A stretch of DNA of 56,107 nt, counting the filler, from Sluysia triapertura (taxonomy: Eukaryota): NCBI GenBank assembly GCA_046118255.1. It is 4 parts of 4 records of this genome, joined end to end, with 100 filler letters (N's around TTAATTAATTAA, not from the genome) between each part and the next. Parts side by side here need not be neighbours in the genome. Positions count along the whole stretch, not along the records: positions 1 to 16,708 come from JBJNIA010198820.1; 3 more parts are not named here. One strand, 5' to 3'. Both the position numbers and the translations under genes were made by a program. How positions within the stretch are numbered: the first letter of the stretch is position 1; each line of letters begins with the position of its first letter. Shown piece by piece: positions 1,421 through 47,876 of the stretch. The notes below the pieces were generated by a model. It saw nothing but the letters and a program-made list of their open reading frames with translations. It had not been told where the DNA came from and did not search any database.

Positions 1421-5653
<4,233 letters not shown>

Positions 5654-10581: not shown

Positions 10582-10599
10582 TATTAATATTATTATCTC

Positions 10600-10657
<58 letters not shown>

Positions 10658-10683
10658 GTTATTATTGTTATTATTGTTGTTGT
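10582..10683. repeat. (ATT)n microsatellite
   Basis: Seen directly; it generates the poly-Leu and poly-Ile pseudo-ORFs. Confidence 0.97.
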
Positions 10684-10816
10684 ATTTTGTTCTATAATTA
10701 TGTTTATAATTTTTTGGGCGATTTTAATTATTGTGCCATTTTTCTTAAGAGAATATTGTAGTATATTAATACCTCGCAAAATATATATTTTTATGTAAAT
10801 TAATTTTTAATTACGA

Positions 10817-11480
10817 ATGACAGCCACATATTGTCTTTGGATTCTTATGATTGAAATCCGCATAGTTTATCTGAGTTTATTAATCAGTATCAGATAAGTT
10901 CCAAAATTTACGGCTGGAATGAAGCCAAACAATGTGAAATATTCCTATTGTATTTACGAGGAAGATCTTTGGGTGTCTATCTCAATATTTCGGAAGAAAA
11001 AAGTGTGGAATGAACTGATCTAATTAAGAAATTCGAAAATCAATTAATTACTAAAGATACACAATCTACTAATGGTGAATTGGTTGTACAACAATTTTTG
11101 GATGTATGCAAGGAGCCAATTCGATCAGACTTGTTAATTTCTGATGCTACGAATTAAGAAAATATTCAATTATAAGCCACAATTATGGAATCTAGATTAT
11201 CCATTATTCTATATAAGGCTAGTTTTATGGTTTCTGATATTGAACCAGTAGAACATCTACTTCAGAATCCTGTAATACTTATATACCTAAAAACAACTTT
11301 CATATGGACATCGAAGAAGATCTAAGAAAATTTAATAATCAATTTATTTAATAATGAAAATAATCATCGTAGTAATAGACCCAATAATTCTGGGCAAATT
11401 GTTCAATTTCAGAACGTCATTATATGTTATTATTGCAATAACATTATTACTCAAAAAAACTAATTCGGCTAACAGTCAAA
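10817..11480 (+). pseudogene. Decayed Ty3/gypsy-like gag
   Basis: LDSYD*NPHSLSEFINQYQISSKIYGWNEAKQCEIFLLYLRGRSLGVYLNISEE matches the retrotransposon gag pattern (F..F...A...GW...K....L...L.G.A...Y). A CYYCN zinc-knuckle start occurs at ~11425. Confidence 0.7.
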
Positions 11481-11929
11481 ATGATCAGAAACCAATACAT
11501 ATCGTGTAGATATATAGACTATAAATGAAGAAAATAGTTAAAGTGACAGAAAATTAATGATGAGGAGAAAGAGGATGAAGCTGCTGAAGAAATGTTCAGT
11601 AAATTATTCATGATAACGGAGGCTGATGAACATACTGAAGAAAATGAGAATATCGATATAAACTACTTATTAATAATGGACGAATCAATAATAAAAGAAG
11701 TAGCTATAATTTTAGACATGTATACGCATTAAGTAATAATTTATATTTTACTTTATAATAAATATAGATATTTTAAATAAAAAACAGAATATTTAAAATA
11801 TAAATAAAATATTAAAAAACAAAACATTTACATAAATTCACAAATGTGAAAATCACATAAATATTTATTTCTAACACAAAGGACTAGTCATAAAATGAGA
11901 TGTATGATAATTCTGTATGTGGACTAAGA

Positions 11930-12012
11930 AAATTAAAATCGGAACCCATATTAAATAAAGTTAGTAATGTTGACTTACAAAATAAATGTTTTACATTCTA
12001 ACAGTATCGCGA
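11930..12012 (+). pseudogene. Possible integrase C-terminal (GPY/F-like) remnant
   Basis: PILNKVSNVD and NVLHSNSI resemble GPY.I..K.S.V.Y....VVH.NR.K; the match is short and degenerate. Confidence 0.35.
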
Positions 12013-12104
12013 ATGAAGCATAATCTCTTAAAAAGAAAATAAAATTGTTAAAAGGGTAAAGAGTTTGTTTTGAAGTGAATCGGACTTTATTATTAAAGCA
12101 AATT

Positions 12105-12540
12105 TTAATATTAATAACTATTTTATTAGGATTATCATTAGTTCAGTCAATAAGAGCAAATGATTGCAAAAACGCTACTTTGGAGAAATATTTTCACTGA
12201 GGGATGTTGAAGAATGCCCTGAGGTCTACCCAAATAAGTTCATTAACCATATGTATCACGTTTATCAAGGAAGGGGACTAATTTATACTCAAGCTAAAAT
12301 GTGTTCCGTTACAAGAAAAATATCTATTAGGTGGTATGGGAATTATAATCACACTTCAATAATTAAACAACCTCATTTAGAAGAATACTTAGAAATTACA
12401 CCCACTAATTGTTATTCAGCTTTTCAAACTTAGAAAATTAAAATAGATACACAAATTAAACTAAAAGCAAAAGTTGGTGTAATATTTGTTGGAGATTTAT
12501 TTAACGATAGTGCTTGTGACTATGGAGAATGTTGGTGTGG
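12105..12540 (+). pseudogene. Truncated, decayed chuvirus-like / class III fusion envelope glycoprotein (env)
   Basis: Hydrophobic leader LLGLSLVQSIRANDCKNAT, then a frameshift, then GEIFSLRDVEECPEV..QAKMCSVTRKISIRWYGNYNHTSII..YLEITPTNCYSAFQT*..VIFVGDLFNDSACDYG. This follows the YDC / SL.DV..C / C..(R)....CG...H.S / C...H.TG / G.....G.C.G pattern I recall for chuviral and Anakin glycoproteins. Confidence 0.7.
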
Positions 12541-12833
12541 TGTTACACCCCACTATATCACATACATCTCATCCACTACCATCATCAACCACATAAACCT
12601 CATCACAAACAAAAACCATATTAAAAATAAATTCATTCACAATATCTGCATTATCACACCTTTTTTCCCTGGCAAATCATAGACGCATAATAAAATCTTT
12701 TTTTATTAATATTTTCTTATACGTAACGCTTGTTGCCACCTCATCATCACTACAACACTACCCTTTTTATTGTATTTATTATTGCAATTTTTAAAGCTTT
12801 GAATTTCCTATTTACTTCCTTTTACTAATAAAT

Positions 12834-13317
12834 TTGAATGTGCTTAATCCAGATTTGAAACAGATGAATTTAACGGAATCTAACTTTAAGTCAATTGATA
12901 ACACAGGAAAAGTAGTAATGGATCAGGATATTGTTACTCGAATTGATGAGTTAAGAAAAGAAGTCGGTGGACTTATCGATGAAATAATTGCTAAAGAAAA
13001 TAAATTATTAGAATCAACATTGCAAGGTAAAAATGCGATTAGTTTACCGATATCGTCTGATATTAATTATCATCACAAATTTGTATTACCACCACAAGAA
13101 GCAGCTTATAGATTAAGTATTGAAACTCATGTTATTTAATAATTCAAAAAAACATCATAATCAAACTTTATTTATATCACGTTCTTATCAAATTCAATCA
13201 AAATGTAACAATTCAGCTACCGCTCCATCATCAACAATGAACAATTTTCAAATTCGTAAATCATATACTTCTACTGAAAGTAACAGCAGTGACAATGATT
13301 TTCAGTACAACCGTTAG
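12834..13317 (+). pseudogene. Frameshifted coiled-coil ORF of unknown function (ORFs 12834-13139 + 13120-13317)
   Basis: Heptad-like IVTRIDELRKEVGGLIDEIIAKENKLLES; the overlapping ORFs suggest a frameshift. Confidence 0.4.
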
Positions 13318-14256
13318 AACTTAATACTATTTTCAAGGATATCAACGACAGCTCTTCGGATGTTATAGTGAATAATGAATCGCTCAATAATCATAAAATA
13401 TGTAATTATGCAAAAATGTTTGATACAGACACAAGTGTTGACTTTAAACGAATTTAGTATCAGTGAATAGATAACATTAAAATATTTTTATAATAAAAAA
13501 CTAATATTAATTTGCTCAAAATATTGTGTTTTCAGATTTAAATAAAATTTTGTTTAAACATTACGTTATTATTTTAAATGTTTAATTCTGACTTCATGGA
13601 TTATAGCACAAACATATTTTAAATTTATGAAATTGTTGTCGATTTTATCCAAGTCATATTTCGTTATATGTAATTGGTTATGCATAAGTTAACATACTAT
13701 TTTTAGATCAATGTTATATTGAAAACGTGTTACAGCATGTTAAATTCATCATATGTAACCTGAAATCAAATCGAATAAATTTAATGAAGCAATTAATGAA
13801 GGATTTAGAGAGATAATAAGATAAGTGATTTGTTATATATTTTTATGTATCACACTGTACAACTTTAAAAGCACTACATAAATTGATGTATTCGTATTCT
13901 ATTTCACAAATGTTGTTTTTGGAAATTAGCTATAGTACAGGAAGATTTGGAATTAACAAGACAGCAGTATGAAAATAAAATGAAAGAAATATCTAAGCAC
14001 ATTTGATATTAATGTATTTGTTGCATTAATGTATTTTATCTCATTTCGAATTTTGTTACTCAAAATTAAATATTCTACAAAATATTAATTAACAATCTAT
14101 ATATTTTCCTATTTTGTATTAAAATTTTGTTTTAGTTGCGAGAAATTTTTGAATTTGACATTGTCAATAATTCGAATTGACTTGTTATACGTATGGTAAA
14201 AATTGTTTTATAAATCTTCAAAACAAGGAAAAGTAATCATATACACTAAAAAAAAT

Positions 14257-15610
14257 ATGAAATCCAACTTCATACAACTATCATCGATTCCAAGTGTGGA
14301 AACTATAAAATTTTCTGACGATGAAGACTAGCATCGACGAGCTCCTTACAGTCCTTCGATTTTTCTCGACGATGATGTAACAATTAACAATCGGAACGAT
14401 AAAGTTGACAATACAACGTTAGAAGACTATTTTTCAAGTAGTTTATCATCTCAAAAAGAAGATATTTTAAAAGTAGACCTATCATGTTTTACAGACAACA
14501 ATGTGATACGAAGAATAAGTGAAAGCTATTTGAAGCAATCACCAGATTTGATTTATCTTAGAGAAAGCATTGATGTTTTAAAACATACTGAATTTGAATC
14601 TTGTAATTTTCTTGGCTCCCATTTAAGAAGACTTTATCCATTTGAAATGTCATTTCAAAAAAAGACAAGAGTCGATAGTGACTGTTATCGAGCTGCTGTT
14701 GAACTGGTGGATCGATGTTTATATAAAGAAGGTATACAGAACATGAAAACCTGTAACAAGACCACTGTCATGCGTTTGTTTACTGATGCTAAATTAACTC
14801 AAAAAGAAAATATTACTGTTGATTCAATCCAACGAATAGTTGGAAATAGATATGAAAGTAAAGAGATGTAGTGAAAGCACTCTACAGTATTATGTTGCTA
14901 CCAACACTTGACCAATATTTTCGTTACTTTTTATTATTAGATAAACCGAATAATTGTAAACAAATTTAAAGGATACCGCCATGTCTTGTAACAGTTTAGC
15001 TGGTTATCCTTATTCATTTATTAACGATGATATGTATTGTTTAACTTATTATATTATTAGACTTTTTGAAATTAGTTTTATTGACGTATTCCTTAAAATT
15101 AGTCATATTAGTAAACATTTTATTATTAGTTACACCAGTCCATGTATTCTTGCAAGATGTATTAGTGGAGCCATATCATTATTTGAATTTGATGTACCAG
15201 TTGAAAAAGACACCTTCGATCTTATTAATTCAAAGTGTGACGAAGGCGAAAGCGGTGACTCATATCCTGGTGTTAATTTGCACACAAAGAAACGTTTTAT
15301 ATGTAAGGTTTTTGCTTTTAGTAATATACCGTTTAATCTATTAAAAACGACTGTGGATGTATTGAAATTACGTTTTAATAAAATCCTGTTAATGAGTTAT
15401 CATTTTTATCGCCCTCATCAATTTAACATAAATATTATGGTGTGGAACAATTATGTGGAACTTTATAAGTAATACAAATTTTCTAAGTTAAAAAATAATG
15501 TTCGTAACGTAAGTAAAAACGCCGTACAAATAAAATTTAATACGACCACTATAAAATTAAATCAAACAACTACACAGGGATTTAAAAAAGAATACGATTT
15601 TATTGAATAA
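14257..15610 (+). pseudogene. Intronless, decayed cyclin-like gene (A/B-type cyclin fold)
   Basis: Cyclin-box pattern CYRAAVELVDRCLYKE..VMRLFTDAKLTQKENITVDSIQRIVGNRYESKEM. After a frameshift at ~14868: VVKALYSIMLLPTLDQYFRYF. Then Cyclin_C-like LFEISFIDV..YTSPCILA and terminal YK*YKFSKL..NVS. Several stops and 2 frameshifts. Confidence 0.7.
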
Positions 15611-16708: not shown

Positions 16709-16808
16709 NNNNNNNNNNNNNNNNNNNNNNNNNNNNNNNNNNNNNNNNNNNNTTAATTAATTAANNNNNNNNNNNNNNNNNNNNNNNNNNNNNNNNNNNN
16801 NNNNNNNN
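16709..16808. other. Assembly gap (N44-TTAATTAATTAA-N44 linker)
   Basis: Identical construct at all three gaps. Confidence 0.99.
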
Positions 16809-18260: not shown

Positions 18261-18948
18261 AAATATTCGTGTGCTATTTTTGTTTCATTATGAAAAACAT
18301 TTATTTAAAATAATTTGTTGCCCTAAATAATCTATTACAGGATATTTAAAGATCACTAAGTAATGGAATTTAAATTTCCAGTACAATGATTACCACCTTG
18401 ATGAAACAGATTTGAGCTACTTTAATAAATTAATTATTAAAATCATCCTCTATGAGTCATAAATAATTTTGTTCATAATGGGATTTCTTTACCATTATGT
18501 AATAGGTTTTAGGATACTTAATGTGAAAAACGTTGTAAAATATTTTAAGACTTACGAGGTTTAAATTGAGAATTATGTTGTTATGAACTTACCTTTTGTT
18601 ATAAAGTTAAGTATAATGAGTTCGGTCATCATAAATAAAAAGTAATTTGTAATTTGATAATACGTACTGTAAATGTTTGTTTAAACCAAGAATATACATG
18701 AATATTTAATTTAAAATTCAATATTTTAATAAACAAAACTATATAGTCTATTTGATATCTTAATTGATATTTTGTATGAAATTATTTAATGATGTTTGTT
18801 TAAGTATGTTATTATTATTATTATTATTTTCTAAATGATGTTCTAAGTGATTCCTTGAAGATTAACAAGTGTTACTTAAAAATAAAATCTATAGAGCATT
18901 TGCTTTTTTGCTGAATAAACCGAATTTTTCGTTTTCTTCTATCATTTA

Positions 18949-19107
18949 TGTTAGACTTCGTAAAATGGACTGACCGGAGATCGAACCCGGGACCATCGTC
19001 TGCGCAGTCGATGCTCTACCACTGAGTTATCAGCCCCGTCTAACAATTTCAGATTTTAATATATTCAATTATACTATTTGGCACTTTTTAGGCCTTTTAT
19101 CCTAACA
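18949..19107 (-). mobile_element. Short element with TGTTAG..CTAACA termini containing a tRNA-like Pol III unit (18966-19036)
   Basis: Minus strand shows acceptor stem GGGCTGA/TCAGTCC, A-box TAACTCAGTGGTAGAGC, T-arm CCGGG-TTCGATC-TCCGG, then TTTT. Flanks are CATTTA / CATTAA. Confidence 0.8.
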
Positions 19108-19490
19108 CATTAACAGATGTAATGATTTTAAAATAATTTTTGACAAAAAAATGTCTAATCACAATCCAATAAACTAAAAGGAAAATGAAATCTTATTAAT
19201 GTTTGATTCCGAATTTAATAATTATTTTACCAAAAAATATAATATTGATTTATTACGTCAAAAATGTCTAGTAGAAATCATATTTAAATTTAAGTTACTT
19301 ATTACTCGTGAAGAAACAGTATATGTCATTGTAACATTACAAGTAATGATCACACCATGTGGACAGTAGATATAAATGTCCGGGTCTGTAATGCAACATA
19401 TCTCATTCAATTCAATTATGTTTGATCTCAAACATTATATATATCATTAATTCAACTTCCGAAGGCTATTCGACTTGTGGGCTCACCAAA

Positions 19491-19535
19491 TGTTAGGCTT
19501 CAACAAATGGGCTGACCAGGATTCGAACCTGGTCA
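19491..19535 (-). mobile_element. Truncated copy of the tRNA-like element
   Basis: TGTTAGGCTTCAACAAATGGGCTGACCAGGATTCGAACCTGG aligns to the start of the 18949 copy. Confidence 0.7.
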
Positions 19536-19572
19536 AAGAATAAAGAGTTTAGTCATTTCTTTGTTAATATAT

Positions 19573-23538: not shown

Positions 23539-24549
23539 TCAATAATTTAATATTATATTAAATATTACTTTATTGGATTTTACATTAAGAGCATTGATTG
23601 AGACTTGTCGAGCCACGGAGTTTATACTTTCATAACGTTTAATATTTTGGCTGTCACTCATAGTATCTACATATTTACATCCATTGCCATACTTTAAGCA
23701 AACCCTTGATTCGTTTGAAGAAGAAGGACAAAAGGAGGTGTAACTGTATTGATGAGAAAAGATATCAATTTTGTAATTTTTTGTGAACAATTAATTTACA
23801 TTTATGTAAGTGACATAGAATGGTTGGATAATTTTAAAATATTTATTCTCTCTACTTAAAAAAACTTGATCAGAGTACTTGTCTTTGGTATGATCTAGGA
23901 TCGAACTATTAAACACTATTTTATGTTTAAATAAATTATTAAAATAAATTTTGTTATAAAACTTTAAATAATAATTAATTGGTAGTCTAACTAAAGTTTT
24001 ATCATGATCTTGTTTATGTTCTAAGTAACTCACTGATAGTTTCGTTACGTCTTTATGATAAGCTTGATAGTATACGTAGCGGCTCCTAGGTAGTTTGACC
24101 AGACCTTTGTCATCATCTCGTTCATATGTTAAGTGACACATTAGTAGTTGAATTATATTTTTATGATCGGTCTGATAATGTACATAACGATTCGTAAATA
24201 GTTCGATGGACTCATTCTCATCATCTTGGTTATTCACTAAATAACTCAAAATTAGTTTAATTACATATTTACGATTGTGATGATTAAGTCCTAAATGGTT
24301 TAACAGTAGTTTAATTATATCTTTACGATGAACTTGATCAAGTACTAAATAGTTCGAAGATAATTTATTTACATCATAATGATTATCTTTATGAAGTACT
24401 AAATAATTCAAAGACAATTTATTTACAACATCACGATTATCTTTAACATGATTGTCATAGTTATAGCATTCAATATCAAAGTGATTGACTTTAAATTCAT
24501 CATCGTGGATACAATAGTTAGAGTCATATAGCATTTTGAAACCAGTCAA
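23539..24549 (-). pseudogene. Repeat-protein ORF (~336 codons, one in-frame stop) with about nine 18-aa repeats
   Basis: ORFs 23791-24549 and 23539-23790 are contiguous and in the same frame. Repeats include HKDNHYDVNKLSSNYLVL, DQVHRKDIIKLLLNHLGL and YQAYHKDVTKLSVSYLEH. Confidence 0.6.
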
Positions 24550-24628
24550 CTTTATTTTTATAAATTCTTTTTTGAGAAGTTAAGAAAAAATTTTTGTGAG
24601 TATTAAAATTGTGATCAATATTGTGTTC

Positions 24629-30190: not shown

Positions 30191-30290
30191 NNNNNNNNNN
30201 NNNNNNNNNNNNNNNNNNNNNNNNNNNNNNNNNNTTAATTAATTAANNNNNNNNNNNNNNNNNNNNNNNNNNNNNNNNNNNNNNNNNNNN
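30191..30290. other. Assembly gap with linker
   Basis: Ns + TTAATTAATTAA. Confidence 0.99.
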
Positions 30291-41308: not shown

Positions 41309-41408
41309 NNNNNNNNNNNNNNNNNNNNNNNNNNNNNNNNNNNNNNNNNNNNTTAATTAATTAANNNNNNNNNNNNNNNNNNNNNNNNNNNNNNNNNNNN
41401 NNNNNNNN
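41309..41408. other. Assembly gap with linker
   Basis: Ns + TTAATTAATTAA. Confidence 0.99.

Positions 41409-47657: not shown

Positions 47658-47706
<49 letters not shown>
47658..47706. repeat. (ATT)n microsatellite abutting the tRNA-like element
   Basis: Seen directly. Confidence 0.97.
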
Positions 47707-47707
<1 letters not shown>

Positions 47708-47876
47708 GTTAGACTTCATAAAATGGACTGACCGGGAATATAACCCGGCACCTCTCGTTTCACATCTGTGCAGTTCGATGATCTGACCACTGATCTATCA
47801 GTCCCGTCTAACGATTTTAATTTTATTATAGTCAATTATACTATCATTATAGCACTTTATAATACTTTATCGTACA
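47707..47876 (-). mobile_element. Second full-length copy of the tRNA-like TG..CA element
   Basis: Aligns end to end with 18949-19107 (TGTTAGACTTC.TAAAATGGACTGACCGG ... CCCGTCTAAC ... CAATTATACTAT ... GCACTTT ... TTTATC..ACA). Confidence 0.85.

What the first reader, a model, noticed from the sequence alone, without database searches (positions are those of the whole stretch)
10817..12540. Gypsy-like gag linked to a chuvirus-type (class III) envelope glycoprotein
Seen: gag with a Zn-knuckle start, a possible integrase C-terminal remnant, then a signal peptide and Cys-patterned glycoprotein, all co-oriented, with almost all of pol missing. Known: errantivirus env is baculovirus-F-like, and chuviral glycoprotein capture is described for BEL/Pao (Anakin) elements in mosquitoes. 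Inference: an independent env capture giving a potentially infectious Metaviridae-like element in a probably non-arthropod host. The gag-env derivative without pol may be a non-autonomous lineage.
Basis: partly seen in the sequence, partly recalled or inferred. Interest (0 to 1): 0.75.

Follow-up and report, generated by a model that had tools for sequence, protein, structure and literature searches.

The report
Decayed gag-env-pol retrotransposon fragment
A broken scrap of a jumping gene in an animal genome has a capsid gene followed by the start of a chuvirus/herpes-gB-type envelope gene and no polymerase; it is most likely the decayed front end of an already described kind of gypsy retrotransposon with the order gag-env-pol, not a new envelope capture.

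Summary
The gag and the envelope are real. 10822-11070 matches a gypsy-type capsid (47 bits; shuffles at most 0.3). 12170-12535 matches Pfam PF24664, a Monjiviricetes fusion glycoprotein, above its cut-off. A relative's model matches chuvirus glycoproteins and herpes gB. All 9 of 9 pol-bearing relatives are single polyproteins with env before protease-RT-RNaseH-integrase, and 5 relatives have capsid then env with nothing from pol in between. So no pol deletion is needed between gag and env, and no integrase remnant was detected there. The copy simply ends after about the first fifth to quarter of env; it has stops, frame changes, no pol and no LTR pair in the window. Ty3/gypsy elements with GAG-ENV-POL order and gB-type env are published for nematodes, flatworms and bryozoans (PMC13524379), which lists 221 gB-type elements. 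This is a dead 5' fragment of a new member of a known kind. It is not infectious as it stands, and nothing supports a non-autonomous gag-env lineage. The host is a long-branch animal whose phylum I could not determine. Other copies in this genome could not be examined.

The parts
10822..11070 (+). gag capsid, N-terminal part (pseudogene; in-frame stops at 10852 and 11011)
   Evidence: capsid profile positions 6-88 of 174, iE 1.6e-14; tblastn to P0018 27-105, E 2e-5; stops listed
11074..11196 (+). gag capsid, C-terminal part, same frame; about 40 profile positions are missing between it and the previous part (inferred internal deletion); stops at 11155 and 11173
   Evidence: profile positions 128-168, iE 1.5, weak alone but collinear
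11359..11436 (+). Asn/Arg-rich stretch and C-x2-C start of a zinc knuckle; the rest of the knuckle is not in this frame
   Evidence: aligns to P0002 8-34, z 2.5, 8 of 300 shuffles as high; translation
11494..11819 (+). decayed acidic gag-env linker (not integrase); changes frame near 11570
   Evidence: weak collinear matches to P0002 74-104 (z 3.2) and 135-204 (z 3.6), each 2 of 300 shuffles as high; integrase C-termini z at most 1.4
12102..12182 (+). hydrophobic signal-like segment and first residues of env, in a different frame from the rest of env (frame break near 12180-12190)
   Evidence: best 15-mer hydropathy 2.64; same placement before the first Cys motif in 7 of 7 relatives shown
12170..12535 (+). 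N-terminal fifth to quarter of a chuvirus/gB-type (class III) env ectodomain; in-frame stop at 12431
   Evidence: PF24664 37-155 of 653, 29.2 bits; P0002 401-528, 48% identity, E 9e-31; env profile 7-121 of 572, iE 6e-29
12536..12540 (.). approximate 3' break: env homology ends; the following DNA is C-rich and has no env or pol homology

Best explanation
This stretch holds a disabled gag and the first part of a gB/chuvirus-type env with no pol in the window, and is most likely the decayed 5' end of a Ty3/gypsy LTR retrotransposon with the gene order gag-env-pol (an 'errantivirus' in the sense of Chary and Hayashi). Shown in relatives: one polyprotein runs capsid, zinc knuckle, linker, hydrophobic segment, env ectodomain, membrane anchor, protease, RT, RNase H, integrase. 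Inferred: the internal hydrophobic segment sends env into the ER, and host and element proteases cut the polyprotein, so that intact elements would make enveloped particles with a class III fusogen. Inferred for this copy: after insertion it lost everything 3' of about 12536 (rest of env, all of pol, 3' LTR) by deletion or rearrangement, then gathered stops, frame changes and an internal capsid deletion. It likely makes no protein and has no function.
For: Best relative P0002 (52% identity, E 2e-28) is a 2627-aa protein with env at 392-960 followed by protease, RT, RNase H and integrase. Env lies before pol in 9 of 9 pol-bearing relatives. In 5 of 17 relatives tested the capsid is in the same protein upstream of env. 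Capsid-to-env spacing is 540, 557, 828 and 1118 aa in the 4 of those 5 where the motif was found, against about 460 codons here, while pol alone spans about 1120 aa in P0002. The same protein P0018 maps both its gag and its env onto the window in order. The linker has weak collinear matches to P0002 and none to integrase. P0002's pol is closest to Ty3 among solved structures (E 4.9e-119). The model of relative P0007 matches herpes gB (E 1.3e-7) and chu-like virus glycoproteins (best E 3e-26). PMC13524379 describes GAG-ENV-POL with gB-type env in Nematoda, Bryozoa and Platyhelminthes.
Against: The window has no pol or LTR, so gypsy membership and gene order are inferred from relatives at about 30-52% env identity. 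One search covered only proteins of 1444-4598 aa, which favours fused forms; relatives with env as a separate ORF after pol would be missed. The linker matches are weak (z 2.5-3.6, picked from many comparisons), and a ~100-aa linker domain found in 7 of 17 relatives was not detected in the window. No RT tree with named gypsy and BEL references was built. The fold was of a relative and is of modest confidence (mean pLDDT 57.8, pTM 0.36, TM-scores 0.18 to gB). No second copy from this genome was seen.
Confidence: 0.88

Rival explanations
1. A non-autonomous gag-plus-partial-env derivative that is copied in trans by autonomous elements, with the 3' break as a shared deletion junction.
For: Pol is absent from the window. 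Some relatives are on record without RT or integrase (P0003, P0008, P0010, P0018: env and protease only; P0007: env only), though these may be gene-calling or contig truncations.
Against: Both gag and env are disabled by stops and frame changes, and env lacks about three quarters of its length, including the anchor. No LTR pair was found, and there is only one copy in the 56-kb window.
Confidence: 0.05
2. A gag-pol-env element, that lost pol by an internal deletion and left an integrase remnant before env.
For: gB-type env after pol exists in other gypsy lineages and in mosquito Pao 'Anakin' elements (PMC13524379, PMC7642597). The gag-env gap here is shorter than in relatives.
Against: No integrase, RT or protease signal in the gap. 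The gap weakly matches the native linker of P0002. All 9 pol-bearing relatives have env before pol.
Confidence: 0.04
3. Chance neighbours: a gypsy gag fragment and a separately integrated chuvirus glycoprotein fragment (non-retroviral endogenous viral element).
For: Chuvirus-glycoprotein fossils next to LTR fragments are common in arthropods (PMC10084718, abstract). The family fold is closest to chu-like virus glycoproteins.
Against: The best sequence relatives are retrotransposon polyproteins, not virus glycoproteins. One protein, P0018, matches both parts in order and at a fitting spacing.
Confidence: 0.03

Closest known systems
GAG-ENV-POL Ty3/gypsy 'errantiviruses' with HSV/gB-type env in Nematoda, Bryozoa and Platyhelminthes (Chary and Hayashi, eLife, PMC13524379)
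   Same: Gypsy-type gag directly followed by a gB-type env with a hydrophobic leader; relatives carry a Ty3-like pol after env; non-insect animal host likely.
   Different: This copy is a disabled 5' fragment with no pol or LTR. Host phylum and position among the published clades were not determined, and I did not compare with their sequences.
Nematode endogenous retroviruses (Sacco et al. 2022, J Gen Virol, PubMed 35550022; not held; title and flipped ENV/POL order seen as cited in PMC13524379; the single continuous gag-env-pro-pol ORF is recalled)
   Same: Env before pol; RNA-virus-like glycoprotein on a metavirus backbone; relatives here are single-ORF polyproteins.
   Different: The host is not shown to be a nematode, and membership of that clade was not tested.
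Anakin, mosquito Pao elements with a chuvirus glycoprotein (PMC7642597)
   Same: Same broad glycoprotein type.
   Different: Anakin is BEL/Pao; relatives here carry a Ty3/gypsy-type pol and no Pao-type Pfam family was listed for them.
Jingchuvirales (chuvirus) glycoprotein and herpesvirus gB, class III fusion proteins
   Same: PF24664 match; the relative's model hits both.
   Different: Only 16-20% identity to chu-like virus glycoproteins and about 10% to gB in the structural alignments; part of a retrotransposon polyprotein.

Membership tests
Ty3/gypsy (Metaviridae) LTR retrotransposon | Gypsy-type gag capsid, often with a CCHC knuckle | tested here: met
   Capsid profile iE 1.6e-14. The knuckle is only a C-x2-C start. 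Pfam alone gave no gag hit.
Ty3/gypsy (Metaviridae) LTR retrotransposon | pol in the order protease-RT-RNaseH-integrase with a Ty3-like RT | tested here: inconclusive
   Absent from the window. Present in 9 relatives in that order, with Ty3 as best solved match. No tree with named references.
Ty3/gypsy (Metaviridae) LTR retrotransposon | Paired LTRs, primer binding site, target-site duplication | tested here: inconclusive
   No LTR pair in the window; expected if the 3' end is lost. Primer binding site and target-site duplication not assessed.
GAG-ENV-POL gB-type errantiviruses (PMC13524379) | env directly after gag and before pol | tested here: met
   gag-linker-env in the window with no pol signal between; env before pol in 9 of 9 relatives. 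The pol side is seen only in relatives.
GAG-ENV-POL gB-type errantiviruses (PMC13524379) | HSV/gB-type (class III) env with signal or membrane segment | tested here: met
   PF24664 above cut-off; hydrophobic leader; relative's model hits gB and chu-like G.
GAG-ENV-POL gB-type errantiviruses (PMC13524379) | Intact three-gene element with uninterrupted ORFs | tested here: not met
   At least 6 in-frame stops in the segments listed (5 gag frame, 1 env), two frame changes, truncated env: a fossil of the kind, not an intact member.
Published nematode, flatworm or bryozoan clade | RT phylogeny and cysteine-bridge type place it in a named clade; host in that phylum | not testable with these tools
   No RT in the window and no reference sequences at hand. 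The host kinase is about equally distant from all animals compared.
BEL/Pao (Anakin-like) | Pao-type gag and pol, glycoprotein downstream of pol | tested here: not met
   Relatives show gypsy-associated pol families and env before pol; no Pao-type family was listed (which families mark Pao is recalled).

The most novel reading that the evidence does not exclude
The fragment marks a single-ORF gag-env-pol gypsy lineage in an animal phylum where such elements are not yet listed, and members of this lineage carry swappable host-like modules in the gag-env linker: a ubiquitin/CIDE-N-like domain in some and a Bcl-2-like domain in others, possibly to control cell death or polyprotein processing.
Probability: 0.2. 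Interest if true: 0.45.

Novelty: new member of a known kind. Interest (0 to 1): 0.15.

Why it matters
It matters little in itself: a dead fragment of a published class of envelope-carrying gypsy elements. It adds one more long-branch animal host to the gag-env-pol, gB-type group. It also shows that gag next to env without pol should not be read as a pol deletion. The only lead with some promise lies in the relatives, whose linkers give weak ubiquitin/CIDE-N-like and Bcl-2-like matches.

Tried and rejected
No whole genome is held for this window, so copy number and recurrence of the junction could not be tested. The word-based protein search with the env fragment found none of 27 candidates; the full HMMER search found 17. 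Of these I scanned 16 in Pfam (P0015 left out): 13 carry PF24664, P0009 hit an annexin family only, and P0014 and P0016 had no family. A PDB sequence search with the fragment gave only a chance homeodomain hit. No related loci in viral contigs or metagenome contigs; the alignment query was unusable. One sequencing run holds the stretch, with no RNA holder listed; it may be the source and is no evidence, and no reads were laid. Integrase remnant: rejected. Pol pieces elsewhere in the window: none, best iE 0.43. LTR pair: none. Host phylum from the NDR kinase: not resolved. The ORF at 14332-14871 gave only a weak Cyclin_N hit (E 0.008) and no atlas hit. Sacco 2022 is not held. A paper search for Bcl-2 with gypsy polyprotein and env listed 2 general papers, not read; that single search does not show the linker modules are unpublished. 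Earlier-finding look-ups by sequence, place and the first word set were empty.

Full report
Setting. The window is very AT-rich (15-30% GC per kb) and holds an intron-containing NDR/STK38 kinase gene at about 3008-5270, so it is animal genomic DNA. Two kinase exons are 68-74% and 61-65% identical to each of 11 animals compared, whereas the 6 arthropods among them are 89-97% and 71-86% identical to one another. The host is therefore a long-branch animal, probably not a typical arthropod; the phylum is not determined. No whole genome is held.

Observation. The region has no long ORF; the remnants lie in three + frames. The env piece 12164-12556, read with X at its stop, matches Pfam PF24664 Monjiviricetes_fusion at 29.2 bits (cut-off 27), profile positions 37-155 of 653. 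HMMER over 1.84 billion proteins gave 17 hits; 13 of the 16 scanned carry PF24664. A capsid profile from 5 relatives hits 10822-11070 at iE 1.6e-14, with a weak collinear continuation at 11074-11196 after a jump of about 40 profile positions. On 10700-12700 the gag and env profiles score 47.8 and 94.6 bits against maxima of 0.3 and 1.9 in 40 codon-block shuffles. A hydrophobic stretch at 12102-12146 precedes the first Cys motif, as in 7 of 7 relatives shown. The zinc knuckle is only a C-x2-C start. Gag and env are real and co-oriented.

What the relatives look like. The best hit, P0002 (52% identity, 2627 aa), is labelled as a bacterial bin protein; I take that for eukaryotic contamination, which is an inference. 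It begins near a zinc-knuckle-like motif and has env at 392-960, then protease, RT, RNase H and integrase. Searching with its env among proteins of 1444-4598 aa gave 8 hits. With P0019 from the cluster look-up, 9 pol-bearing proteins were examined, and env lies before pol in 9 of 9. Five of 17 relatives tested have the capsid upstream in the same protein. P0018 maps both its gag (27-105) and its env (574-702) onto the window in order. Capsid-to-env spacing is 540-1118 aa in 4 of these and about 460 codons here. The length window favours fused proteins, so relatives with a separate env ORF would not have shown.

The supposed integrase remnant. The three + frames between gag and env were compared with 11 segments of relatives, with 300 shuffles each. 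Integrase C-termini gave z at most 1.4. The N-terminal linker of P0002 gave three collinear weak matches (z 2.5, 3.2, 3.6). Profiles of protease, RT-RNaseH and integrase find nothing in the whole window (best iE 0.43). So the gap is best read as a decayed native linker, and no pol deletion is needed there.

The real loss is at the 3' end. Env homology stops at about 12505-12535: profile positions 7-121 of 572, or P0002 residue 528. The DNA then turns C-rich and matches neither env nor pol. No LTR pair was found. In-frame stops lie at 10852, 11011, 11155, 11173, 11461 and 12431 in the segments listed, with frame changes near 11570 and 12180-12190. The copy cannot encode a working capsid or envelope.

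Class and lineage. P0002's pol is closest to Ty3 Gag-Pol (E 4.9e-119) and Ty3 RT (E 1e-90) among solved structures. The Pfam families listed for the relatives are those usual for gypsy pol, with no Pao-type family (family assignments recalled). This is not an RT tree. The intact env of relative P0007 was folded from a 12-sequence alignment (mean pLDDT 57.8, pTM 0.36, better over about residues 180-430). It matches herpesvirus gB first, then GP64 and Thogoto glycoprotein in the PDB (best E 1.3e-7, TM about 0.18). Among viral models it matches Tacheng Tick Virus 4 and chu-like virus glycoproteins (best E 3e-26). The class III, chuvirus-like call is right for the family.

How it works. Shown for relatives: one polyprotein gag-env-pro-RT-RH-IN. 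Inferred from general knowledge of such elements: the internal hydrophobic segment directs env into the ER, the downstream anchor returns the chain to the cytosol, and proteases release the parts, giving enveloped particles with a class III fusogen. Neither step was tested, and PMC13524379 itself says the entry mechanism is unknown for gB-type elements. This copy is inferred to be an old insertion that lost its 3' part and decayed.

Comparison with what is known. Chary and Hayashi (PMC13524379; I read the abstract, part 1 of sections 5, 6 and 9, search passages, and some rows of supplement 1) report intact env-carrying gypsy elements across animal phyla, with F-type and gB-type env equally widespread. 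They state that those of Nematoda, Bryozoa and Platyhelminthes carry only gB-type env in the order GAG-ENV-POL. They also state that the mosquito BEL/Pao chuvirus-like glycoprotein occurs next to gypsy pol in 114 arthropod elements. Their table has 221 gB-type entries; the occurrence counts imply 36 nematode, 9 flatworm and 10 bryozoan rows. They argue for ancient acquisition rather than recent capture. Their other supplements, which may hold sequences that would place this family, were not read. Sacco et al. 2022 is cited there for nematode elements with env before pol; the paper is not held. Anakin is a Pao element (PMC7642597, passages). Gypsy fragments beside Jingchuvirales glycoproteins are noted in PMC10084718 (abstract).

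Verdict. It is a new, dead member of a known kind, and interest is low. Left open: other copies in this genome, the host phylum, and the clade within the published groups. Side lead in the relatives: a conserved linker domain of about 100 aa in 7 of 17 proteins. Its 14 PDB hits at E 0.15-1.2 are all ubiquitin, ISG15 or DFF45/ICAD chains. Two other relatives give weak Bcl-2 hits (E 0.00096 and 0.2, both below the Pfam cut-off). The linker domain was not detected in the window, and the Bcl-2-like domain was not searched for separately.

Noticed in passing
P0141 801-900, P0008 455-552, P0002 208-302, also P0142-P0145: A conserved ~100-aa domain in the gag-env linker of 7 of 17 relatives; all 14 weak PDB hits (E 0.15-1.2) are ubiquitin, ISG15 or DFF45/ICAD chains. 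Not detected in the window.
   Followed up: partly
P0007 9-70 and P0010 52-113: Weak Bcl-2 family hits just upstream of env (E 0.00096 and 0.2, below the Pfam cut-off); the region is helical in the model.
   Followed up: partly
P0003, P0005, P0008, P0019, P0141-P0145: Many relatives carry two to four aspartic-protease-like repeats per polyprotein, and several have an extra hydrophobic, membrane-protein-like extension after integrase.
   Followed up: no
P0002: A eukaryotic-type gag-env-pol retrotransposon polyprotein is filed as a hypothetical protein of a bacterial metagenome bin; likely contamination of the bin.
   Followed up: no
window 3008-5650: Intron-containing NDR/STK38 (tricornered) kinase gene, about equally distant from all animals compared.
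   Followed up: partly
window 12795-15472: Three + strand ORFs (114, 179, 170 aa) just after the env break; the middle one has a weak Cyclin_N hit (E 0.008) and no atlas hit; possibly exons of a divergent host gene.
   Followed up: partly
window 18940-19036, 19482-19536, 47698-47752: A tRNA-like gene on the minus strand and two further partial look-alikes, possibly a tRNA-derived short repeat.
   Followed up: no
window 16709-16808, 30191-30290, 41309-41408: Three scaffold gaps, each 44 N, a short palindromic spacer and 44 N: the assembly is gapped.
   Followed up: no
window 23791-24579 (-): 262-aa ORF built partly from 54-nt tandem units; no Pfam family.
   Followed up: no
window 10583-10681: An (ATT)n microsatellite about 140 bases upstream of gag, where a 5' leader or LTR would be expected.
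   Followed up: no
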